DNA from: a virus
Length of the DNA: 17,717 nucleotides
UHGV virus genome: UHGV-0179344
Strand: one strand, 5' to 3'
The number at the start of each line of letters is the position of its first letter. Position 1 is the stretch's first letter. The position numbers and the translations under genes were made by a program. The notes under the pieces were generated by a model. The model worked only from the letters and a program-made list of their open reading frames with translations, searched no databases and was not told the DNA's origin. Below, piece by piece: positions 1 to 17,717 of this stretch.

Positions 1-1727
1 TCGGTGTAACGCACCAGGCCGCTCTGGAAGTTGATATTCACCTCGAAGGCGTCCAGTGTTTCGCCATCCGGGCAGGCGAGGAAAGGTCCTACCCACTCGT
101 AGTCGTCGCTGACACCCGTCACGGTGGCATCCAGCAGCGTGCGCTCGGTGAAGCCAGGCCATGACGGGTCAGGCGTCGTGATAGTCTCACCTGCCGGGCC
201 TGTGGTGACCGTTATCCGCTCAACCGTGACCGTCTGGCTGTCGATAGCCGTTATGCGGAACTGATTTCCGGCCAGCCCCAGAGAGAAACGCTGAATGCCC
301 TCCGGCAGTCCGGTGAACGGCGTGCCAGCGGCGCTATTGTAGGCCAGCGTGATGTGCGCCCTGACTTCCGCCGTGCCGCCCGCTGACTTCACGCCTGTTG
401 TATTAACCGGGGCATCCCCAAACGCAGACGCGGGTAACGGGCTGTTCGTGATGGACCCGCCAGCAAAGGGGCTGCTGGCCTCACCGATTTCGAGACGCCC
501 ACTGTTATCGCGGGCAACCAGGCCGGAACCGGAGAGCTGCGATGTGATCGACGAAGTAAGGCCCGACATGGTGACGTAGTTGGTAACCAGAGATACCGGA
601 TAGGTCGTTCCCTGCCAGCTGATGCTGAACGTCACCGGCGCGGTGCTGAAATCGTAGGTGGTCGGCGCGGCACTGGCAGTTAAGGTCGCGGCACTTCCCC
701 CTACTCCCGGCACCGCCGGAACGCCCGGGGCATAGCTGGCGATCACCAGGTCATAGTCGTTGCCGTTATAGTTCAGCGTCACCGGCATGCCGACGGACGG
801 GGCCAGTTCTTCTATTCCGCCATAAATGACGCTGTAACCGCCGGACGACACGACAGTATAGGAGTTGGGGGCCAGCACGGTGATCACCGTCCCGACTGTC
901 CAGGACGGCGGAATTTCCTCATCCCCGCCGGATGCCGATACGTCAACCAGGGTGATGGTGTTGCCGGACACGACCAGCGCATCAGCGATGATACTGACTG
1001 TTTCCGGGCCGCTTGAACCCAGATCCAGCCCGGCGGTACCGGAACCTGTATTCCCCACCTCAGGTGAGTTGAACCAGTTTTCGGTGCGCGCGTCGCCGGA
1101 TACCGTAGCGCCAGGCGGATAGATGGTGTAACGCACGTCGGTACCAAACGCGGAGATCGGCGTATTGCCTATCTTAATGTCGGACTGATTAATCACCATG
1201 TCGCCGACGCCCACGCACAGGAACATGCTGGTTTCCATACTGGTCTCGTTGACGAACCGGCTTACCGGTTGCATCACGTAATCAGGCCAGACACGATATT
1301 TCCCGAAGATTTCCCGGATGGGGTCACCCAGTTTCGCCGCGTTTGCTTTGGCAGGGTTCAGGTCAATCTGATCGCCGCTCGCCGCCTGTGCACCACTGCC
1401 GCCGGGCTGAGACATCGTACTCATCATGTAGATGCTGTAAGCCGCAGAGGCGACGGCTACGCTGACTGCAACCCAAATCGCGATTTCTGCGCCGGTACCG
1501 TATGGCACCGGGTACATTCTGACGTCAGTTTCACGTTTGATGACGCACAGTGGCCACTCTGCTGGCGGAACGGGTAGGCCGTCGATTTCAACCGCGACCG
1601 GGTGCTGCTGATCCGGCGTCCAGTCCTGCACATTCTGCGCAAACCAGGCGCTGAGGTTCATGGTTTCGTGTTGGTGCGTTTCCAGCGGCTCTCCCTGCAG
1701 TCGGGAGGGGTAGATTCGTATCGTCAC
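1..1727 (-). CDS. Large tail-tip / host-specificity protein (J-like central fibre), 5' portion only; C-terminus lies beyond the window start
   Basis: Hand translation of the minus strand from ATG 1661 to the window start gave no stop in my reading (about 553 codons); the ORF track omits it because it has no stop in the window. Predicted N-terminus MNLSAWFAQNVQDW, one hydrophobic helix (AEIAIWVAVSVAVASAAYSIY), then Gly/Thr/Ser-rich fibre-like sequence. Alternative start GTG at 1727 overlaps the upstream TGA (GTGA) with GGAG 8 nt upstream; ATG 1661 is the other candidate. Position directly after the K-like gene matches lambda-like tail-tip order. Confidence 0.55.
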   Translation of the reverse strand, partial: MTIRIYPSRLQGEPLETHQHETMNLSAWFAQNVQDWTPDQQHPVAVEIDGLPVPPAEWPLCVIKRETDVRMYPVPYGTGAEIAIWVAVSVAVASAAYSIYMMSTMSQPGGSGAQAASGDQIDLNPAKANAAKLGDPIREIFGKYRVWPDYVMQPVSRFVNETSMETSMFLCVGVGDMVINQSDIKIGNTPISAFGTDVRYTIYPPGATVSGDARTENWFNSPEVGNTGSGTAGLDLGSSGPETVSIIADALVVSGNTITLVDVSASGGDEEIPPSWTVGTVITVLAPNSYTVVSSGGYSVIYGGIEELAPSVGMPVTLNYNGNDYDLVIASYAPGVPAVPGVGGSAATLTASAAPTTYDFSTAPVTFSISWQGTTYPVSLVTNYVTMSGLTSSITSQLSGSGLVARDNSGRLEIGEASSPFAGGSITNSPLPASAFGDAPVNTTGVKSAGGTAEVRAHITLAYNSAAGTPFTGLPEGIQRFSLGLAGNQFRITAIDSQTVTVERITVTTGPAGETITTPDPSWPGFTERTLLDATVTGVSDDYEWVGPFLACPDGETLDAFEVNINFQSGLVRYT

Positions 1728-2155
1728 TGATAATACTCCACGCGGACAAAGCGGCGCGCAAATCGCGCCAGCGGCAGGAAGGTCACGTTAGTGCGGGGGT
1801 TGCATTCAGCGGCGCACATCTGGCCGTCAATCTCGACCACGATGGCAACGTGCGTCACCACTGAACCGGAATAACAGGCAATGCCCGCGCCCGGTTCAGG
1901 TTCACAACGCCGCAGATCAGCCATCAACCCGCGCGCCTCCCGATCAAGGCCGTTATCATCCTTCGTGACCCCGGCAAAATCAGGCCATGGCACCAGACCA
2001 AGGTCGCGCCTGATTTCATTAACGATGCCAAAGCAGTCGAGCGCAGGGTAAATACGCCCGCCCTTCTGCCACTCGACAGAACGGTATTTATCAGGGTTAA
2101 ACCGACCGTCTTTGCAGGATGAATTCATTATTGAGGCGCTTGATAAGCTCATCAT
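1724..2155 (-). CDS. Tail-tip NlpC/P60-family cysteine peptidase (lambda K-like, without an MPN domain)
   Basis: 143 aa with Cys in YPALDCFGIV and His in VVTHVAIVVE, the spacing expected for an NlpC/P60 catalytic pair. AAGGAG sits 5 nt upstream of ATG 2155. Position between L-like and J-like genes. Confidence 0.6.
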   Translation of the reverse strand: MMSLSSASIMNSSCKDGRFNPDKYRSVEWQKGGRIYPALDCFGIVNEIRRDLGLVPWPDFAGVTKDDNGLDREARGLMADLRRCEPEPGAGIACYSGSVVTHVAIVVEIDGQMCAAECNPRTNVTFLPLARFARRFVRVEYYQ

Positions 2156-3233: not shown

Positions 3234-6200
3234 TTAGGTCATCCTGTTTCCGCGACCCTGAGCCGCCCTGAGTGATTTACCGAACTGGCCTTTGCCTTCC
3301 AGAGTCTGATTACTAAGCTCGTTCACGAGTTGTTTGTTATTCAGCTTCAGCACTGCATCCATCTCCTGCTGAGTCATACCAGGGCTTTGCGGCATGTTGA
3401 TAATCTGGCTGATGTGGTTTGTTTGTGAACTGCCACCTGAAGAGGACTCATTCTTGCTACCCGTCCCGAAACCTGGCTTTGACAATGTGGCATCCAGCCC
3501 ACCATTGCGAATAGCCTCAAGGTTAGAGACTCCAATGCGCTTGGTTGCCGCAGCGTCAAAGACGTATTCCTGCCCATGCACAACGCCAGAGATAGACCGC
3601 GTCGCCCCATTCCCGGTGTAGCCGCCGGACTGAAACCCAACAGCCGCAGCGCTGGTAATGCTCGAGGTTATAGTGGACATAAGCCCCACAACCTGAGCAA
3701 TGGCAGCAAGGTTTGCCGGAAACGGAAGCCCGGCCAGCGCCTGCCCCATCGCCATCGGCAACTGCAGGGCTGCCTGCGCCAGCGCGAACGCTTTCTGAGT
3801 GATGAACGCCGCTTTGTACATCGCTGACTGTTCGCCAAACATCGTCCCCATAGAATCAGTGATGCTGGAGAACGAGTTTTGCGCGGACTGAGCCTGAGCA
3901 GCGTAAACAGCCATACTCATAGCCTCCTGATTCTGGTTGCCCTGCTGGCGAAGCGCGTCCAGTTGTTGCTGCTTCTTCTGCTCATTCAGGACGCTATTCA
4001 TCGTTATCGCTTTTTCCTGATCACTCAGCCATTTGGCATAATCGCCCTGAGCAGTTTTCAGCTTTTCAATAATCTCCAGTTGCGGGTCAATTTGCAGGCC
4101 GATCATGTTCATGCCCTGACCTGACAAATCATTGTTTGTTGCGCCAGATTTCAACGTCCCACCAGCGGCATTAACACCGGATATTACAGAATCAGGCAGC
4201 ACCGATTTGCTAATCAGGTCGCTCGCTTGTTGCCCTGCGGCTTCCGGCGAAAGCTGTTTAAGCGTCACCATTTTTTGTAGAATCTCCAGGCGTTTCTGGA
4301 GTGTCTCGTTTTGCCTGATCTCTTTCGGTGCGATGTCCTCCTGCATTTTCCGGTAGTCGTCGAGCGTCTTCACCTGCCCCTGCAACGCCTCCTGATTTTT
4401 ATATGCCTGCAGAATTTCTTCAGAACGGGAGAGAATAGACTTCTGGTCGGCGGTTAGTTGCGCCTTAGACTTGAGGTCTGCAATCTGCTGCTCGAACTTA
4501 ACTCTCGCCTGTGTTGCGCTGTTAAGCTTGTCACTGGCATCCAGTTGGGACTGCATGGCTGCAGTCTGCTGATTTATCTGATCAAGTAACCGGGTTGCAG
4601 CATCCTCTGTATAGGCTTTCCCCTTGGGCGCCTTGGGTGTTTTCGGGTCTTTGTAGCGGTCATTTATTTCAGAATATATTCTGTCATATTCTTCTTGAGT
4701 ATATTTCCCGCGATACTTGGATAGCTCAGCCAACTCTTTAGCACGTTGCTGCTGCCGTGTCTGATATTTCTGAGAAAAGGCATCAGCCTTCTGCTGTAGT
4801 TTTATCCCTTCCTGCTGTTTTTTAAGGTATGGGTCATAGGATTCATTAATGGCGTCCTGAGCCATTTTCTCGGACTGCAATGAAGCTAGTCGCGCTTTAG
4901 CAGCATCGACCGCCTTTTGAAGCATGGAAAGGTCGCTAGACTTCCATGCGCCATATGGCCCAGCATATTTTGATTGTCCGGCACTTAAATCAGAGAGTGA
5001 CTTTTGCGCCCTACCCAGTTCGTCCTGAGCTTCTGCTATTTTTTGATCTATAGATTTTTCACGACCTATATCTAGCATGGCATCCCAGGCACCTTTCGCG
5101 GCATCACCCAACCATTTCCATGCCTGCTCCAGTGAGCCTAGGTTACCCTGAATCTGGTCAGCACGCTGCTTCATAGTCGCAGCATACGTATCTGTCGCCA
5201 GTCTCGCAGCCTCTTGCTGATTACCCTCGTCCTGCAACGCCTTAATCTGGTTGTAGGTTGCTAGAGTCAGGAAGTGATATTTGTCGTTCAGTTCTCCGAT
5301 AGCCGCTACCGGGTTTTGTGCGATTTTCTCGAAGTCTGCCACCATGCTATCGACAGATTTATCGGTCGCATCGTTCATTGCGACAACGGCCTCCGTGACA
5401 GTCTGCATTGAACCTGTAGCGATTTTACCACCAGAAACAACACGGTTTAGTGCCTGAGCGGCGGCGGCTGTGGTATTCCCTGTGTTATCTGCGACAGATT
5501 TCGCCATGTCTGCCAATTGCCCGGTGGTTACCCCGGCAATATTCCCGGTCAGAACAAGGGACTTATTGAACTCCTGTTGCTCCTGGCTGCCTTTGTACCA
5601 GGCATATGTGAGAGTACCCACAACTGCGACAAGAGCGCCGATCCCGATAGTCATGGGATTGAGAAAGCCAGTGAGTTTTTTGGCATTCTCAGCATTTTCA
5701 GACAATGAGTTAGCGTTATCTGACAGAGAATCACTGGATTCATCGGCGGCATCTCCGGCTCCCAGTATCTGCTGTTTTATGATTTCGAAAAGATTACCCC
5801 AACCGCCAAAAGAATCGGCGATCTGCGAACCCTGCTGCATGAAGATAGTGAACAAAGGCATACCGCCAGCCAGGCCAACAGCAATATCATTCAGTTGCGC
5901 GGGGAGTAACCGCATGGCATTTTTATACTGACCTGCCGAGATAGCACCATACCGCATTTCATTGCTGACCTGATTGAGACCTTTCTCCGTCAAATCCAGC
6001 TTATTTGAAAGCTCTGCGTGGTATTCAGGAGACAGGAGTCCAGCATCCCTAGCAGCCGATAATGTCGCGCGCTGGCTTTTCAGCCTTTCCAGGGCTGCGC
6101 CAAGAGGGTCTAATTGCGAGCGTATTTGAGAGAAACTAGCCTGGAGTTTTTCATTCTCTCCAGTGAGACCACTAACCCTGTTTCTGGCATCATCAATTTT

Positions 6201-6503
6201 GGCTGCGTAATCTTCAAAACTATCAGCATCTAAGAGGCCTTTAGATTTTGCCCGAGAAAGCTCCTGCTGTTGTTTGTCTAATTTGTTGAGGGCTGCGTTG
6301 ACTGGGTCTATGCTGTCAAGCAAATCCTGAAGCGCTGACTTTTCCTCCTGAGTAGCTTTTGTCACCCTCCCTGCGCTTGCGGCTGCCTTTTGCCCCCACT
6401 CTGTTAAGCCATGAAGAGCACTGGACAAACTGCTGGCATTTTTTTCCGCGCCTGTACTGTCAATGATTATCGCAAGGCGTGATGTTTGTTCAGGCATTAC
6501 CAT
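3234..6503 (-). CDS. Tail tape measure protein
   Basis: 1089 aa, Ala/Gln/Leu/Lys-rich helical sequence with hydrophobic segments (MTIGIGALVAVVGTLTYAWY, FALAQAALQLPMAMGQALAGLPFPANLAAIAQVVGL) and a Gly-rich C-terminus; lies between the chaperone genes and the tail-tip genes. GGAGA precedes the second ATG (6497), which may be the true start. Confidence 0.85.
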   Translation of the reverse strand: MVMPEQTSRLAIIIDSTGAEKNASSLSSALHGLTEWGQKAAASAGRVTKATQEEKSALQDLLDSIDPVNAALNKLDKQQQELSRAKSKGLLDADSFEDYAAKIDDARNRVSGLTGENEKLQASFSQIRSQLDPLGAALERLKSQRATLSAARDAGLLSPEYHAELSNKLDLTEKGLNQVSNEMRYGAISAGQYKNAMRLLPAQLNDIAVGLAGGMPLFTIFMQQGSQIADSFGGWGNLFEIIKQQILGAGDAADESSDSLSDNANSLSENAENAKKLTGFLNPMTIGIGALVAVVGTLTYAWYKGSQEQQEFNKSLVLTGNIAGVTTGQLADMAKSVADNTGNTTAAAAQALNRVVSGGKIATGSMQTVTEAVVAMNDATDKSVDSMVADFEKIAQNPVAAIGELNDKYHFLTLATYNQIKALQDEGNQQEAARLATDTYAATMKQRADQIQGNLGSLEQAWKWLGDAAKGAWDAMLDIGREKSIDQKIAEAQDELGRAQKSLSDLSAGQSKYAGPYGAWKSSDLSMLQKAVDAAKARLASLQSEKMAQDAINESYDPYLKKQQEGIKLQQKADAFSQKYQTRQQQRAKELAELSKYRGKYTQEEYDRIYSEINDRYKDPKTPKAPKGKAYTEDAATRLLDQINQQTAAMQSQLDASDKLNSATQARVKFEQQIADLKSKAQLTADQKSILSRSEEILQAYKNQEALQGQVKTLDDYRKMQEDIAPKEIRQNETLQKRLEILQKMVTLKQLSPEAAGQQASDLISKSVLPDSVISGVNAAGGTLKSGATNNDLSGQGMNMIGLQIDPQLEIIEKLKTAQGDYAKWLSDQEKAITMNSVLNEQKKQQQLDALRQQGNQNQEAMSMAVYAAQAQSAQNSFSSITDSMGTMFGEQSAMYKAAFITQKAFALAQAALQLPMAMGQALAGLPFPANLAAIAQVVGLMSTITSSITSAAAVGFQSGGYTGNGATRSISGVVHGQEYVFDAAATKRIGVSNLEAIRNGGLDATLSKPGFGTGSKNESSSGGSSQTNHISQIINMPQSPGMTQQEMDAVLKLNNKQLVNELSNQTLEGKGQFGKSLRAAQGRGNRMT

Positions 6504-6514
6504 TCTCCGGACAT

Positions 6515-6543
6515 GAAAAAACCCGCCGTAGCGGGTTTTGTTT
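6515..6543 (-). terminator. Intrinsic terminator after the small secreted-protein gene (symmetric, potentially bidirectional)
   Basis: Plus strand aaaaaa-CCCGC-cgta-GCGGG-ttttgttt: a 5-bp GC stem with tetraloop flanked by A-run and T-run; on the minus strand it directly follows the TAA of 6542..6826 and precedes the tape measure RBS. Confidence 0.5.
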
Positions 6544-6826
6544 ATTGGCGAGACTTTTTATCTCTCTCGTGCTCTGAGGCTATGTAATCATAGGTGATTT
6601 TAGCATTGCGGCATTGCTTAGATGTATCCCCGTCAATAAGGCACTCTCCGTGATATCTGGAGATATTTGATGACATGCTAATAGCAGATATGAAAATAGA
6701 CTCGCACCTTTTGTCGCCATTGCACGCCTGGACCCTCATGCTATCCAGAAGTTGAACTTCCTCAATTTGTGCAAAAGAATAACCACATGAAAAAGATAGG
6801 ACCAAACCCAAAATTATTTTTTTCAC
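6542..6826 (-). CDS. Small secreted (periplasmic) cysteine-rich protein, moron gene; function unknown
   Basis: From GTG 6826: MKKIILGLVLSFSCGYSFA followed by QIEE, a classical Sec signal peptide with an AXA-like cleavage site and no lipobox; mature part about 75 aa with 4 Cys. ATG 6847 is an alternative start (gives 101 aa). Local GC is about 40% against about 55% for flanking phage genes. Confidence 0.5.
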   Translation of the reverse strand: MKKIILGLVLSFSCGYSFAQIEEVQLLDSMRVQACNGDKRCESIFISAISMSSNISRYHGECLIDGDTSKQCRNAKITYDYIASEHERDKKSRQ

Positions 6827-6856
6827 TCCACACCCCATCAGTAACATTTACCAACA

Positions 6857-6883
6857 TCGTATCAGGTGCTGATCCCGAATCAA
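6857..6883 (-). promoter_or_regulatory. Candidate sigma70 promoter for the secreted-protein gene
   Basis: On the minus strand TTGATT, 16 nt, TACGAT, ending a few nt upstream of the candidate starts. Weak match, by eye only. Confidence 0.2.
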
Positions 6884-6943: not shown

Positions 6944-7498
6944 TTATTCAGGTAGAGCTTTGCCAAACCCGGGAAGCCTTATCTGCCCTTGCTGTTCAAT
7001 GCGCTCGATGCGAGCAAGCAGCTCGGGCTTTTTAACTCTGCCCCAGCGATTAAGCAGGCGACCTGACATGCTGGCCACGTCTTTCTCTTTCATGAACTCC
7101 AGCATGACGGCGTTTCGCTCCTCCTCAAACTGGCGCTGACCAATCTGAAGCATTGCGTACATCCAGTTGAAAGCGTTGATGTAAGCAATCTTGATCCGCA
7201 TGGCTTCTTTCTTGGTATAAGACATCACAAGAAGCATTAATCCATCCTTGCGGAGACGGTAGAACTTCTGCGGCTTACCATTCTGTAACTCATTGTTTTT
7301 ATAGCAAAGCTCAAAATTGAGCTTTGTATCAAACTCTGGAGGGCAAGCATCAATAGTCCTTTCAATATCGCGGACTACGTTTTTCGATAACTTGCCAAAT
7401 GCTTTTGCCACCATAAAAGAATCGGTAACCGGATCGTTGTTTGCTACAAAAATCAGATCGCGGAAATCGATGCCGTTAACGACTGTTGGGTAGTTCAT
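6944..7498 (-). CDS. Rha-family phage regulatory protein (N-terminal Rha domain, uncharacterised C-terminal region)
   Basis: The 287-aa track ORF has a junk Arg/Ser/Pro-rich N-terminal 103 aa that overlaps the upstream gene and terminator. From Met104 (ATG 7498, AAGG 8 nt upstream) the sequence VANNDPVTDSFMVAKAFGKLSKNVVRDIERTI ... RKDGLMLLVMSYTKKEAMRIKIAYINAFN matches my memory of the Rha-family N-terminal domain. Low GC (about 35-45%). Confidence 0.65.
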   Translation of the reverse strand: MNYPTVVNGIDFRDLIFVANNDPVTDSFMVAKAFGKLSKNVVRDIERTIDACPPEFDTKLNFELCYKNNELQNGKPQKFYRLRKDGLMLLVMSYTKKEAMRIKIAYINAFNWMYAMLQIGQRQFEEERNAVMLEFMKEKDVASMSGRLLNRWGRVKKPELLARIERIEQQGQIRLPGFGKALPE

Positions 7499-7650: not shown

Positions 7651-7676
7651 AAAAAAGCCCCGGCGATTGCCGAGGC
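7651..7676 (-). terminator. Intrinsic terminator immediately after the GT chaperone stop
   Basis: Minus-strand RNA GCCUCGGC-AAUC-GCCGGGGC followed by UUUUUU, an 8-bp stem with one G-U pair. The pairing works only for the minus-strand transcript, matching the gene orientation. Confidence 0.5.
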
Positions 7677-8443
7677 TTATTTCTTCTTGCGGTCCTGCTC
7701 CTGCTTTTTGGCCCACTCATCGCGCCATGCGTCATCAAGTGCGAATATCGCAGCTTCAAACTCATCGCGATCGAGCTGTATGGGCCGAACAGACAGGTAT
7801 TGCTCAATGTCTCTTATGCCAAGGGGAAGCGGCGATCCCGTCATGCCTGCGTATGCCCTGGATCGGGAAATGATGGCGTATGCGCTTAGTATCTCGCCCG
7901 TTACGCCGTCTATCTCAGGCTCAGGAACGGGAGGCAACTTTAAACGCTCTCTCTTCCAGCGCTCCTTCTCTCCCTGCTCGCCGCCGTACTGGTTCAGCCA
8001 GGCTTGTGCTTCTGTGACTTTTTTACGGTTTCTTTCTTCTGCTCCGCCTTCCCTTCGGCAATCTCTGCTGCCGCTCCGAGGATTTGCCAGTAAAGCTCCG
8101 GGCGCTGCTTAAGAAGGGCCGCCCCTTTCTCTGGCGTATAGTCGATGGCTAATTCTTTACCATCTACCAGCTCGCCTACACCTTCCCAGCCTTTCAGCAG
8201 GTAATGAGCGCAGTTTTCGATAAGCAGGTCGTCAACTGAGTCGATATCGCCTACAGCAGACAGGTTGAAATCTTTCGTGCCGACCTTGTAGGTGGCATCG
8301 AGCTTTTCAATATGGCGACGTACGAGAGCGTTACGGGAGCGGTAGTGATGATTGTCCACACTGCCTACCTTCAGGCGCAGGCCTTCAATAGGCTCAATCC
8401 AGCGCTCACTGTTCAGGTCGATACGGGGTGCGATAATAATCAT
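7677..8443 (-). CDS. Tail assembly chaperone GT-like fusion made by programmed -1 frameshift (about 256 aa)
   Basis: ORF 7677..7937 is in the -1 frame relative to 7994..8443 and stays open upstream across the slippery site; the track start at 7937 is a TTG, so it has no convincing initiation codon of its own. Confidence 0.45.
7994..8443 (-). CDS. Tail assembly chaperone (lambda G-like)
   Basis: 149-aa acidic protein between the major tail and tape measure genes; the slippery heptamer lies 7 codons before its stop and a -1 frame ORF continues downstream. Confidence 0.6.
   Translation of the reverse strand: MIIIAPRIDLNSERWIEPIEGLRLKVGSVDNHHYRSRNALVRRHIEKLDATYKVGTKDFNLSAVGDIDSVDDLLIENCAHYLLKGWEGVGELVDGKELAIDYTPEKGAALLKQRPELYWQILGAAAEIAEGKAEQKKETVKKSQKHKPG
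8019..8025 (-). other. Programmed -1 ribosomal frameshift slippery heptamer A-AAA-AAG
   Basis: Minus-strand GTA AAA AAG in the G frame (plus-strand cttttttac); A AAA AAG is a well-known efficient -1 slip site in enterobacteria. Confidence 0.45.
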
Positions 8444-8501: not shown

Positions 8502-9674
8502 TTAAGGTGCGGTAACGGTGATTGCGGTTGTGGCGGTATAGGTCCGCGCTTTCGCAGTGATGATTGCTGACCCTTCAGCGACGCGGGTAACCTGCGCCGT
8601 CTTCTGGCCGGTTGAGGCGACCGTTGCCACTGCCGGATCTGATGACGACCATTGCACCGTGTCAGTAGCGCCTGTTGGCGTCAGATTTGCAGTCAGCGTT
8701 ACGGTGGAACCTTCTGCGCCAGAAGAGGTTGCCGGAGTGACTGAGATCGCCGTAGATGGCACCGTAACTGCACGAGTGATGGTTGGCGGAACGTCAGCAC
8801 CGGTAATGTTCAGCTCAACCTGTACGATGTCGGTGTTGCCGCCGTCAGGCCAGTCGCCATCAACCTGAACAGACGGCAGATTAAACGTATAGCTACCCTC
8901 ATCGTTTTCGAGGGTGAAGCTAAACGGCATCGTCTCGCCGGTCATGGTTTTACGCCAGGCGTTATAGGCCTCTTTCGACCAGGACAGCGTAATACTGCCA
9001 GACGGCGTGAACGTAGTCGGGATGTTTGCGCCTGCAAACGGGTTGCCCGTCCCGATACAGCGCTGGGTTTGCAGGTTGTTGTCAAACTGGATGTTGAAAG
9101 AATCGACACAGAAGCCGTCGCCGCCATCAATGCCATTCAGGTTGATGTTCGTCACCTGCTTGAACGAGTAACGCATCTCCCCGGCGTTATCGACAGGGTT
9201 GGTGAAGAAGCTCGTGTCTTCCGCGTTACCATCCCATCCAAGCCCAGCAAAGGTGACGGTCGCTTCAATGTCGCCGTCGTTTGGTACTTCAATCTGGAAC
9301 ACGCCAACCTGAGCGCCGCGGGCGATTGATGCGACACCGATATCGTCAGCGTATGACGCTACAGAGAAGGTGATACGCTGATTCCCCATCGTCAGGACGT
9401 TGTTGACCCACTCGGAACCAAAACACGAAGCGAGAAAGTCATCATGCTGCCCCCAACGGAACTTGGTTACCACGTCACCGCCTACATCGGTAGTGCCGGG
9501 GCTGCGGCCTTGCGCCATTCGGGTGCCGCCAATTTCGTCGTTGTCGATCATGTTTTGGGTTGGACCAAGGCCAAATGAACTGCGCTTCAGCAGATTCCAC
9601 GCGCCTGTGGTCGGCGTGATGCCGGGGGTAGTTTCACGGATATACGCCGTGACGTTCTTTGCGCCTGAGCTCAC
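8502..9674 (-). CDS. Major tail (tube) protein with C-terminal Ig-like domain
   Basis: 390 aa; AAGGAGG 6 nt upstream of GTG 9674; the C-terminal ~100 aa is Thr/Ser/Ala/Val-rich beta-type sequence (TVTLTANLTPTGATDTVQWSSSDPAVATVASTGQ) typical of Big_2-like Ig domains on tail tube proteins. Confidence 0.75.
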   Translation of the reverse strand: MSSGAKNVTAYIRETTPGITPTTGAWNLLKRSSFGLGPTQNMIDNDEIGGTRMAQGRSPGTTDVGGDVVTKFRWGQHDDFLASCFGSEWVNNVLTMGNQRITFSVASYADDIGVASIARGAQVGVFQIEVPNDGDIEATVTFAGLGWDGNAEDTSFFTNPVDNAGEMRYSFKQVTNINLNGIDGGDGFCVDSFNIQFDNNLQTQRCIGTGNPFAGANIPTTFTPSGSITLSWSKEAYNAWRKTMTGETMPFSFTLENDEGSYTFNLPSVQVDGDWPDGGNTDIVQVELNITGADVPPTITRAVTVPSTAISVTPATSSGAEGSTVTLTANLTPTGATDTVQWSSSDPAVATVASTGQKTAQVTRVAEGSAIITAKARTYTATTAITVTAP

Positions 9675-16016: not shown

Positions 16017-17113
16017 TTATCTTCTGAATGTAACAGGTGCCGACTTCAGCACGTCCCGTTTTTTCTGCGTTACTGCAAAGTATCTGAATCCGTCAGATCC
16101 GTGCGATGTCCAGTCGTGAAGTGGCTTGTCTTTCCAGCACCCTCGCTTGTCATCCCACTCCTTGCGATAGCTCTCCAGGGCGTTAAGTCCTTCTTCGCAT
16201 TTCACGTCATCAAAGGCGCATCGCGGGAGGATTTCACGCACCTGCTCGATACCGTCGTCAACGCCAAGCTTTGGCACCACCTGGAAGGTGATCCCATATC
16301 TGGTGCCGTCAATTTCGTAGCCTTCACGCGCCAGCTCTCGCCGGGTCTTGGCATCAGAACCGAACTCGCGGTTGTCAATATCGTGCGGCCCCCAGTGAGC
16401 GGCATAGGTATAGCCTTTATCCTTCAGCACCTTCATGTAATGGCGCAGGCCCTCACCGCTGTTCTCGTAGTAGTCGATGACGTGATACTCCTCGCCAACG
16501 ATGCGAACGAACCAGATAGCGGTGGAGTCGCTGACCCCGATATCCCAGAAGGTGTGGACAGGGAGGTGAGAGTTATCAGGAAGAGCACCAATGCGCTTCT
16601 GCTCGTAGAGCTTGCGGAACTGCTTAGCGTAGTAGGCACCTTCAACCGACTGCTGGAATGCTTCCGCTGGGATTGACGGATACTCCCGCTTCATGTCATC
16701 GCCGAGCGTTTTCTCTTTGGCGTAATACCAGGCCCGCTGACGCTCGTTAAGCACAATGCCGTACTTCGCCTCAAGCTCAGCGAAATAATCGCTCAGCCGC
16801 TGCGGTAGAGCCTCTACGGGGTCAATTGCATACAGGGCATTCTTCCACCAACTGAAAAAGAAGAATTTCCAGTCTAGAGATGAGAGCAACTTGCCCTGAA
16901 GTTGTGCTTTCTCAGCCGACTGACAGTAATCGAAGAAGTAACCAGCCCGGCCTTCCGCAGTGCTTTCAATCGTCGTGAAACAGTCGCTTGATACTGCCTC
17001 AAAAGCACCAGTGACAATCTCTCGGGCCTTGTCGGGAAACTTGGCGCAGATCTTCCCGAACTCGGAAACGTGCAGGTAGCGCAGCGTACCGCCACGGAAA
17101 GATGTGCTGATAT
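16017..17113 (-). pseudogene. Terminase large subunit, 5'-truncated by IS insertion (ATPase N-terminus missing, nuclease domain present)
   Basis: Track ORF 16017..17195 contains FWDIGVSDSTAIWF and WGPHDID, terminase nuclease-type acidic motifs, but its first ~27 codons lie inside the IS terminal repeat region. There is no Walker A and no plausible start downstream of the junction. Confidence 0.6.

Positions 17114-17717
<604 letters not shown>

What the first reader, a model, noticed from the sequence alone, without database searches (positions are those of the whole stretch)
6542..6847. Small secreted 4-cysteine protein: candidate superinfection-exclusion or lysogenic-conversion factor
The product has a canonical Sec signal peptide (MKKIILGLVLSFSCGYSFA, cleavage before QIEE) with no lipobox, and a ~75-aa mature domain with four Cys (CNGDKRC ... 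C ... C) that could form two periplasmic disulfides. Phages of this type often place small envelope proteins (Cor, Llp, Bor, Lom-type) next to tail genes to block receptors or alter the cell surface; this one resembles none that I can recall.
Basis: inference. Interest (0 to 1): 0.7.

Follow-up and report, generated by a model that had tools for sequence, protein, structure and literature searches.

The report
Exported four-cysteine prophage cargo protein
A real, strongly conserved but uncharacterised small protein, sent to the periplasm by a prophage from a cargo slot beside its tape-measure gene, is a good but untested candidate for blocking infection by rival phages.

Summary
The ORF lies on the minus strand at 6542..6847. 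Homologues place the true start at the GTG at 6826, giving 94 aa: a 19-aa Sec/SPase-I signal peptide with no lipobox, then a 75-aa mature domain with four invariant Cys.

It is a real gene. dN/dS is 0.03-0.11 with saturated dS. About 22 protein clusters exist, all "hypothetical" and all from Enterobacterales (Klebsiella, Pantoea, Serratia, Proteus, Providencia, Salmonella).

Nothing known matches: Pfam, PHROGs, NCBIfam, PADLOC, PDB sequences and 50,697 phage genomes all gave no hit.

In all 24 phage loci besides the window it lies within two genes of a TMP_2-type tape-measure gene. It occupies three different junctions, beside other lipoprotein or secreted cargo. It has low GC and is followed by an intrinsic terminator. 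This is the moron slot of HK97 gene 15.

My best reading is a periplasmic, post-adsorption superinfection-exclusion factor, at about 40% confidence. Function is untested and a promoter is not established. It is a new member of a known kind, of moderate interest.

The parts
6542..6826 (-). Gene X: 94-codon CDS plus stop, GTG start at 6826. The ATG at 6847 used by the ORF finder is probably not the start.
   Evidence: Start position from homologue alignment. Purifying selection, dN/dS 0.03-0.11.
6770..6826 (-). 19-aa Sec/SPase-I signal peptide, (M)KKIILGLVLSFSCGYSFA, with cleavage predicted before QIEE. No lipobox.
   Evidence: n/h/c regions and the -3/-1 rule are kept in 16 of 16 family members. 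Export itself is not tested.
6545..6769 (-). 75-aa mature domain: predicted three helices (3-16, 20-46, 51-74), four invariant Cys (16, 22, 43, 53) and the motif SRYHGEC.
   Evidence: AlphaFold2 pLDDT 94.8, pTM 0.74. Invariant columns. Disulfide pairing 16-22 and 43-53 is inferred from helix topology.
6512..6539 (-). Intrinsic terminator directly after the stop codon (AAAACCCGC-uac-GGCGGGUUUU plus U-run). It is followed by the GGAG ribosome-binding site and start of the TMP gene.
   Evidence: -14.6 kcal/mol, z -2.9. Equivalent hairpins with different stems occur in L003, L004, L006, L010. The same junction element precedes the TMP in relatives without X.
6856..6883 (-). Weak candidate sigma-70 promoter: TTGATT (6883..6878), 16 nt, TACGAT (6861..6856).
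   Evidence: 8 of 12 matches, below the scan threshold (one search found none). The TAnGAT/TTCGAT hexamer and downstream GTTACTGAyGGGG block are conserved in six divergent loci. Inferred, not shown.
6833..6836 (-). GGGG Shine-Dalgarno-like run 7-10 nt upstream of the GTG start.
   Evidence: Purine-rich runs lie at the same place in L001, L003, L010.
3234..6503 (-). Tape measure protein (context: the gene immediately downstream of X).
   Evidence: Pfam TMP_2 1.2e-59, TMP_4 5.2e-24.
6944..7495 (-). Rha/ORF11CD3 regulatory-protein gene (context: a second cargo gene in the same slot, absent in the closest relative L004).
   Evidence: Pfam Phage_pRha 2e-21, ORF11CD3 6e-22..
7677..8443 (-). Tail assembly chaperone G (7994..8443) and its -1 frameshift extension T (to 7677), with slippery A_AAA_AAG at 8024..8018. 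This marks the upstream border of the cargo slot.
   Evidence: PF27119 Phage_YdaY was hit in homologous loci. The window copy itself gave no Pfam hit at E<=0.001 in my own scan.

Best explanation
**What it is.** Gene X is moron-type cargo in the tail operon of a lambdoid-style siphovirus prophage of an enterobacterium.

**Steps supported by computation (export itself is untested).**
- The 94-aa precursor carries a Sec signal peptide that signal peptidase I would cut after SFA.
- This releases a soluble 75-aa protein into the periplasm.
- The mature protein is modelled as a three-helix unit.
- The gene is kept under strong purifying selection.
- It rides next to TMP_2-type tape-measure genes, among other exported cargo.

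**Inferred structural step.** Two local disulfides (Cys16-Cys22 and Cys43-Cys53), made by DsbA, staple the two inter-helix turns.

**Proposed mechanism (inferred).**
- X is made in the lysogen from a weak promoter of its own, or by read-through.
- The terminator in front of the TMP gene keeps tail genes silent.
- In the periplasm X blocks a step after adsorption in genome delivery by incoming related siphophages.
- The target could be the ejected tape-measure or tail-tip complex, including its CHAP/NlpC-P60 wall hydrolase.
- More likely, given X's conservation against a variable TMP, the target is a conserved host periplasmic or inner-membrane factor that this complex needs.
- The result would be superinfection exclusion without loss of the outer-membrane receptor.

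**Confidence.** Exported moron cargo: about 0.85. Entry-stage exclusion: about 0.4.
For: **Real, selected gene**
- dN/dS is 0.03-0.11.
- About 22 clusters of homologues exist in Enterobacterales.

**Export**
- Signal-peptide features and the -3/-1 rule are kept in 16 of 16 members, with no lipobox.

**Fold**
- pLDDT 94.8, three helices.
- Four invariant Cys flank the two turns.

**Cargo status**
- GC is 40.8% against 54%.
- The slot content varies between relatives: lipoproteins, other secreted proteins, Rha.
- X occupies three different junctions: T|TMP, TMP|M and M|L.
- One copy lies in a non-phage island.
- A terminator follows X.

**Against receptor masking, for the entry step**
- X occurs with both DUF1833-type and lambda M/L/K-type tips, yet lies within two genes of a TMP_2-type tape-measure gene in every phage locus.

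**Precedents**
- HK97 gp15 is a moron between the chaperone and TMP genes that blocks genome injection with tail-dependent specificity (PMC3594210).
- T4 Spackle is a 75-aa periplasmic helical disulfide protein that excludes by inhibiting the tail lysozyme (PMC7677548).
- TP-J34 Ltp targets the TMP, and K139 Glo is a soluble periplasmic exclusion protein (PMC3952083).
- The window's tail tip has a weak CHAP-like protein.
Against: - No functional data exist, and there is no homology to any exclusion protein.
- X is 72-90% identical where the neighbouring TMPs are only 37-67% identical. It therefore does not co-vary with the TMP as a specific TMP binder might.
- No sigma-70 promoter reaches the scan threshold.
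- In L001 X starts 22 nt after another terminator, so expression from the repressed prophage is unproven.
- The terminator also precedes the TMP in relatives without X, so it is not X-specific.
- TMP-flanking junctions may simply be permissive insertion sites.
- A distant homologue lies outside any phage tail module.
Confidence: 0.4

Rival explanations
1. X is a lysogenic-conversion or fitness factor unrelated to phage exclusion. A periplasmic protein could change envelope physiology or protect against periplasm-acting toxins, for example as an orphan immunity protein against T6SS or bacteriocin wall hydrolases. It could also act on a host after release.
For: - X is MGE cargo that also occurs in a non-phage island in Salmonella.
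- Its neighbours in the slot are diverse exported proteins, including a VasI-like (T6SS-associated family) protein in L025.
- X is highly conserved irrespective of TMP or tip type, as expected if the target is a conserved host or competitor molecule.
Against: - No similarity to any immunity, toxin or stress-protein family.
- All 24 phage loci besides the window place it in tail operons next to the TMP, the position of a proven exclusion moron.
Confidence: 0.3
2. X is a late-expressed accessory of the lytic cycle. It would be transcribed with the tail operon under antitermination and exported during infection. There it could protect the infected cell from secondary injection or lysis from without, or keep progeny from wasting genomes on debris, as T4 Spackle and T5 Llp do. 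It would not be a prophage-expressed gene.
For: - X has the same orientation as the tail operon and lies inside it.
- No convincing promoter was found.
- In L001 X follows a terminator by 22 nt, leaving no room for a promoter.
- Spackle is a lytic-cycle precedent of the same size and compartment.
Against: - Low GC and a mobile cassette fit the moron pattern, which in HK97 is expressed from the prophage.
- The upstream TAnGAT block is conserved although synonymous sites are saturated.
- X is retained intact in a prophage whose terminase gene is cut by an IS element.
Confidence: 0.15
3. X is a receptor-masking protein of the Cor/Llp type. It would bind the outer-membrane receptor from the periplasmic side and block adsorption.
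For:
- Lipoprotein cargo genes sit beside it in some loci.
Against: - No lipobox in 16 of 16 members.
- No Pfam match.
- X is linked to the TMP, not to J or fibre genes.
- It is found with two different tip modules, which probably use different receptors.
Confidence: 0.08
4. X is not an independent functional gene: a tail assembly or structural component, or a spurious ORF.
For: - It lies between the chaperone and TMP genes.
- It was not called as a gene in an identical ENA contig.
Against: - Strong purifying selection.
- A conserved signal peptide, which is incompatible with cytoplasmic tail assembly.
- G and GT are accounted for by other ORFs.
- X is absent from related phages with complete tails, such as Klebsiella phage 5 LV-2017.
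- No PHROG hit.
Confidence: 0.02

Closest known systems
HK97 gp15 moron (YebO-like superinfection-exclusion protein)
   Same: - Same genomic slot: inside the tail operon between the tail assembly chaperone and tape-measure genes.
- Extra cargo with deviant GC and a terminator.
- A small envelope-targeted product.
- gp15 blocks genome injection with tail-dependent specificity (PMC3594210).
   Different: - No sequence relation: Pfam, including the YebO family, gave nothing at E<=10.
- gp15 is inserted in the inner membrane, whereas X is predicted to be cleaved and soluble in the periplasm.
- X also occurs downstream of the TMP.
T4 Spackle (gp61.3)
   Same: - A signal peptide and a 75-aa mature periplasmic protein.
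- A compact alpha-helical bundle stabilised by disulfide bonding.
- Acts as an exclusion factor on the incoming tail (PMC7677548).
   Different: - No sequence match to any PDB chain.
- Spackle has one disulfide and five helices, and is an early gene of a lytic myovirus.
- Its target, a T4-type tail lysozyme, is not present here. The nearest candidate is a weak CHAP-like protein.
Other non-receptor exclusion proteins outside the cytoplasm: TP-J34 Ltp, Vibrio phage K139 Glo, P1 Sim
   Same: - All are exported proteins of temperate phages that stop DNA entry after adsorption.
- Ltp targets the tape measure protein.
- Glo is described as a soluble periplasmic protein (PMC3952083).
- Sim is included from my own knowledge.
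   Different: - No homology was detected.
- Ltp is a lipoprotein of a Gram-positive phage.
- These genes lie in lysogeny modules, not in the tail operon.
Cor / Llp / Bor / Lom
   Same: They are small envelope proteins encoded near tail genes of temperate or T5-like phages.
   Different: - Cor, Llp and Bor are lipoproteins, and Lom is an outer-membrane beta-barrel.
- X has no lipobox, is predicted all-helical and matches none of their Pfam models.

Membership tests
Moron (Juhala/Hendrix sense) | Extra gene inserted between genes that are adjacent in related phages | tested here: met
   - The T|TMP slot holds X alone (L004), Rha+X (window), lipoprotein+X (L001, L003) or a different secreted ORF without X (L027). 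It is empty in Serratia L010, where X sits after the TMP instead.
- X occupies three different junctions.
Moron (Juhala/Hendrix sense) | Base composition different from neighbouring genes | tested here: met
   GC is 40.8% (GC3 42.6%) against 54% for the window, 50.5% for the TMP and 56.5% for the tube gene.
Moron (Juhala/Hendrix sense) | Own transcription terminator | tested here: met
   - A hairpin plus U-run lies right after the stop codon, and also in L003, L004, L006 and L010.
- Caveat: the same element precedes the TMP in relatives lacking X.
Moron (Juhala/Hendrix sense) | Own promoter and expression from the repressed prophage | tested here: inconclusive
   - No site of 9/12 or better was found.
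- A weak TTGATT-16-TACGAT exists, with a conserved TAnGAT block.
- L001 leaves no room for a promoter.
- Expression is not testable with these tools.
Sec/SPase-I secreted (non-lipoprotein) periplasmic protein | Positively charged n-region, hydrophobic h-region, small residues at -3/-1, no lipobox | tested here: met
   Met in 16 of 16 family members.
Sec/SPase-I secreted (non-lipoprotein) periplasmic protein | Demonstrated export and cleavage | not testable with these tools
   This needs a PhoA or BlaM fusion, or N-terminal sequencing.
HK97 gp15 / YebO family | Sequence homology to YebO/gp15 | tested here: not met
   There was no Pfam hit at E<=10. No annotated relative appeared in the protein searches.
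HK97 gp15 / YebO family | Position between chaperone and TMP genes | tested here: met
   The gp15 position is taken from PMC3594210.
T4 Spackle family | Sequence or fold similarity to Spackle (PDB 6X6O) | tested here: not met
   - The profile search against all PDB sequences gave only a chance hit at E=1.1.
Cor / Llp / Bor lipoproteins, Lom beta-barrel | Lipobox (lipoproteins) or Ail/Lom barrel; Pfam family match | tested here: not met
   No lipobox, an all-helical model and no Pfam hit.
Tail structural or assembly protein | Homology to a virion or chaperone family; cytoplasmic location | tested here: not met
   - No PHROG or Pfam hit.
- A signal peptide is present.
- G/GT are identified elsewhere.
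Known anti-phage defence systems (PADLOC) | Match to a defence-system protein model | tested here: not met
   One member in 11 had a chance-level hit at E=0.015; the rest had none.

The most novel reading that the evidence does not exclude
X founds a new family of soluble periplasmic, doubly disulfide-stapled three-helix exclusion proteins in temperate siphophages of Enterobacterales. It would disable tape-measure-dependent genome delivery. It could do so by binding a conserved host periplasmic or inner-membrane entry factor, or the ejected TMP/tail-tip hydrolase complex. The terminator-plus-RBS junction next to the TMP gene would be the recombination handle by which such cargo is swapped between phages.
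Probability: 0.3. Interest if true: 0.6.

Novelty: new member of a known kind. Interest (0 to 1): 0.4.

Why it matters
How siphophage DNA crosses the periplasm and inner membrane is poorly understood. Few exclusion proteins act at that step: HK97 gp15, Ltp, Sim, Glo and Spackle.

A small, soluble, confidently modelled periplasmic protein tied to the tape-measure region would be an easy probe of that step. It can be expressed, purified and used for pull-downs, and escape mutants can be mapped.

X also marks a cargo hot spot in Klebsiella, Pantoea, Serratia and Proteus prophages. This slot collects exported proteins, several of them unannotated, which is relevant to phage-therapy host-range failures in Klebsiella.

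If X turns out not to affect phages, it is still an uncharacterised, strongly selected exported prophage factor in clinically important genera.

Tried and rejected
**Family and sequence searches**
- Pfam, PHROGs, NCBIfam and PADLOC scans of X and 15 relatives gave no consistent hit.
- The profile search against PDB sequences gave only a chance hit.

**Structure**
- The full-length AlphaFold model was poor (pLDDT 59.8). The mature-domain model was good.
- The AFDB50 library was unavailable.

**Nucleotide and genome searches**
- Megablast of the locus against E. coli genomes and phage records found no match.
- tblastn of X against 50,697 phage records found no match.
- A degenerate DNA pattern against GTDB representative genomes returned one chance Clostridium hit.
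- The source organism of the window was not identified. An exact TMP look-up failed. The tube protein led to an identical ENA metagenome contig.
- Rfam and tRNA scans of the window found nothing.

**Ideas considered and rejected**
- A lipoprotein using the Cys in the signal peptide: rejected, because the -1 residue is F/Y/P/S and the Cys is not conserved.
- X as the T part of the chaperone: rejected.
- Heat-stable-enterotoxin-like peptide: no Pfam support.
- Co-variation of X with the TMP: not seen.
- A conserved partner gene next to X across loci: none found.
- Defence-island context for the Salmonella homologue: no PADLOC hits.

Full report
**1. The observation**

The window is the late region of a siphovirus prophage read on the minus strand.
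- It contains terminase, portal (DUF4055), Mu-F-like head protein, capsid and tail terminator genes.
- It then has the tube (Phage_tube_2+Big_2, 8502..9674), chaperone G (7994..8443) and T extension (to 7677).
- These are followed by a Rha/ORF11CD3 gene (6944..7495) and the ORF in question (6542..6847).
- Last come the tape measure protein (3234..6503; TMP_2, TMP_4), a DUF1833 protein and tip proteins.

The ORF exists as described, on the minus strand. Homologues start at exactly this aligned M/V-K-K position, and a GGGG run lies 7-10 nt upstream. The product is therefore 94 aa rather than the 101 aa from the ATG at 6847.

**2. It is a real, selected gene of a rare, unnamed family**

- Three protein searches and one exhaustive profile search found about 22 clusters at 90% identity, roughly 116 member sequences.
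- All are annotated 'hypothetical'. They come from Klebsiella, Pantoea, Serratia, Proteus, Providencia, Salmonella and metagenomes.
- Pairwise dN/dS is 0.03-0.11, with dS of 1.1 or more or saturated.
- The family is under-counted. An ENA contig identical to the window across X and the TMP (L029) has X intact but not called as a gene.
- No member matches Pfam, PHROGs, NCBIfam, PADLOC or any PDB sequence beyond chance.
- tblastn finds nothing in 50,697 deposited phage genomes.
- A degenerate DNA pattern found only a chance hit in GTDB representative genomes.

**3. Anatomy of the protein**

All 16 members examined share these features:
- a 19-aa signal peptide with 1-2 basic residues and a hydrophobic core;
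- S/A/V/I at -3 and A/S at -1;
- no lipobox;
- a 70-75-aa acidic-to-neutral mature domain with exactly four Cys at fixed spacing (C-x5-C, 20 residues, C-x9-C).

Other invariant or near-invariant residues are R38, Y39, H40 and G41 (motif SRYHGEC), plus A56, Y60 and E66.

AlphaFold2 on the mature domain with 15 sequences gives pLDDT 94.8 and pTM 0.74. The helices span residues 3-16, 20-46 and 51-74. The full-length run was poor.

Cys16 and Cys22 flank the first turn, and Cys43 and Cys53 flank the second. The only pairing compatible with that topology is 16-22 and 43-53. This is an inference, because I could not measure distances.

**4. Genomic behaviour**

I examined 24 phage loci besides the window, several of them near-duplicates.
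- X lies directly upstream of a TMP_2-type tape-measure gene in 18 of them: L001-L006 and L013-L023.
- It lies between the TMP and M genes in Serratia-type phages: L010-L012 and L024.
- It lies between M and L in L025 and L026.
- A distant homologue (27-30% identity) in Salmonella Wedding sits in a non-tail island near DnaB/ParE-like/DUF2857 genes.

The slot between the chaperone T-part and the TMP is a cargo hot spot:

| Locus | Slot content |
|---|---|
| L004 | X alone |
| Window | Rha + X |
| L001, L005 | lipoprotein + X |
| L003 | a different lipoprotein + X |
| L006 | several genes + X |
| Klebsiella phage 5 LV-2017 | an unannotated, unrelated 117-aa secreted ORF, no X |

Other points on genomic behaviour:
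- X has 40.8% GC against 54% for the window.
- It occurs with both DUF1833-type and lambda M/L/K-type tips.
- It stays 72-90% identical where the adjacent TMPs are only 37-67% identical.

**5. Signals**

An intrinsic terminator follows the stop codon (6539..6518 plus U-run; -14.6 kcal/mol). Equivalent hairpins with different stem sequences follow X in L003, L004, L006, L010 and L024.

After the hairpin comes a conserved T7-ATGYCYGGAGA stretch that supplies the ribosome-binding site of the next gene, whether that gene is TMP or M. The same hairpin-plus-RBS junction stands in front of the TMP in relatives without X there (L010, L027). The terminator is therefore a property of the junction as much as of X. 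It may be the homology patch through which cargo is exchanged.

No promoter meets the 9/12 scan threshold. A weak TTGATT-16-TACGAT exists. Its TAnGAT hexamer and a downstream GTTACTGAyGGGG block are conserved across six loci whose synonymous sites are saturated. However, L001 leaves only 22 nt between a terminator and X. Autonomous expression is therefore plausible but not shown.

**6. Interpretation**

*Supported by sequence analysis and modelling (export and fold are predictions):*
- X is an exported, non-lipoprotein, disulfide-capable three-helix protein.
- It is encoded by mobile accessory cargo in the tail operon.
- It is not a tail component. G/GT are accounted for by the A_AAA_AAG slippery site at 8024..8018 and a conserved T-part.

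*Inferred: a post-adsorption superinfection-exclusion role in the periplasm.* The argument rests on four points.
- The slot is that of HK97 gene 15, a proven injection-blocking moron whose specificity depends on the tail.
- X is linked to the TMP region and is indifferent to tip or receptor module, which argues against receptor masking.
- It is located in the compartment the ejected TMP and tip must cross.
- There are precedents for small periplasmic or exported exclusion proteins: Spackle, which is also 75 aa, helical and disulfide-bonded; and Ltp, which targets the TMP, and Glo, which is periplasmic and soluble.

*Against the inference:*
- X does not co-vary with the TMP. If it excludes, the target is more likely a conserved host factor or a conserved TMP or tip element.
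- A homologue exists outside phage tails.
- Expression in lysogens is unproven.

I put the exclusion mechanism at about 0.4. A non-phage fitness or immunity role is at about 0.3, a lytic-cycle accessory role at about 0.15, receptor masking at about 0.08, and a structural part or artefact at about 0.02.

**7. Comparison and novelty**

By position and logic X works most like HK97 gp15. By size, compartment and architecture it most resembles T4 Spackle.

It is a member of neither. Sequence and fold tests were run and not met. It also fails the defining features of Cor, Llp, Bor and Lom.

It is thus a new, sequence-orphan member of a known kind: moron-encoded envelope proteins of temperate phages. 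A specialist would not be surprised by its existence. It is nevertheless a clean, tractable candidate for probing the periplasmic stage of siphophage genome delivery. Interest is 0.4.

Noticed in passing
window 7677..8443 (-), slippery site 8024..8018: The tail assembly chaperone G (149 aa, YdaY-like) and its T extension are joined by a canonical -1 slippery heptamer, A_AAA_AAG. The T frame is open through the 3' end of G. The T-part is conserved in L001, L003, L004 and L005.
   Followed up: partly
window 6944..7495 (-): A Rha/ORF11CD3 regulatory (antirepressor-like) gene sits inside the tail operon between the chaperone and X. It is absent from the closest relative, L004, whose sequence resumes at the same CGCAACT point. 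A terminator-like hairpin at 7678..7655 follows the T-part just upstream of it.
   Followed up: partly
window 16017..17717 (-): The large terminase gene is cut at about 17110-17118 by an IS3/IS911-like element (rve transposase 17122..17625; 93-96% identical to IS copies in phages SEN22, Sf6 and SfII). The prophage is therefore probably defective, while X and the tail genes remain intact.
   Followed up: partly
window 6506..6539; L010 2466..2510 and 7300..7340; L027 7262..7300; L001 8452..8495: A recurring junction element stands in front of the TMP and M genes in several related phages, with or without cargo: GC hairpin, T6-7, AT(G/T)YCYGGAG, then a start codon. It may act as a terminator that keeps tail genes off in lysogens, and as a recombination handle for cargo exchange.
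   Followed up: partly
L027 7360..7713 (-) = Klebsiella phage 5 LV-2017 (KY271399.1), between chaperone and TMP: An unannotated 117-aa ORF with a Sec signal peptide (MKKVIIGTIFFSLFFGLAEA|RPL...), followed by its own terminator, occupies the slot that X occupies in the window. It is unrelated to X.
   Followed up: partly
L029 10935..11240 (ENA ERZ27296168 contig k141_3793): This metagenome contig is identical to the window across X and the TMP, and X is intact there. The assembly's gene caller did not call X, which explains why the exact protein is missing from the protein collection. It also means the family is under-counted.
   Followed up: yes
window 1724..2155 (-): The 143-aa tail-tip protein downstream of the DUF1833 gene has weak, sub-threshold CHAP-domain similarity (E=0.001, 20 bits against a cutoff of 26). 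It is a possible tail-associated peptidoglycan hydrolase, in the position where lambda-type relatives carry JAB+NlpC/P60 K proteins.
   Followed up: no
L001 7595..7951, L003 7491..7913, L006 5743..6276, L010 6589..6900, L025 4212..4694: Other cargo next to X in relatives is also envelope-targeted. There are three unrelated lipoproteins (LSGC/LTGC lipoboxes), a secreted 103-aa protein, and a VasI-like (T6SS-associated family, E=4e-6) protein. None matches PADLOC.
   Followed up: partly
L007-L009 (Salmonella enterica serovar Wedding and related contigs), X homologue at L007 7001..7270: The most distant homologue (27-30% identity, four Cys kept, motif ARFYHHC) is not in a phage tail module. It lies in an island between PBP/SBF/AraC genes and a DnaB, DUF2857 and ParE-like element, flanked by small membrane proteins.
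   Followed up: partly
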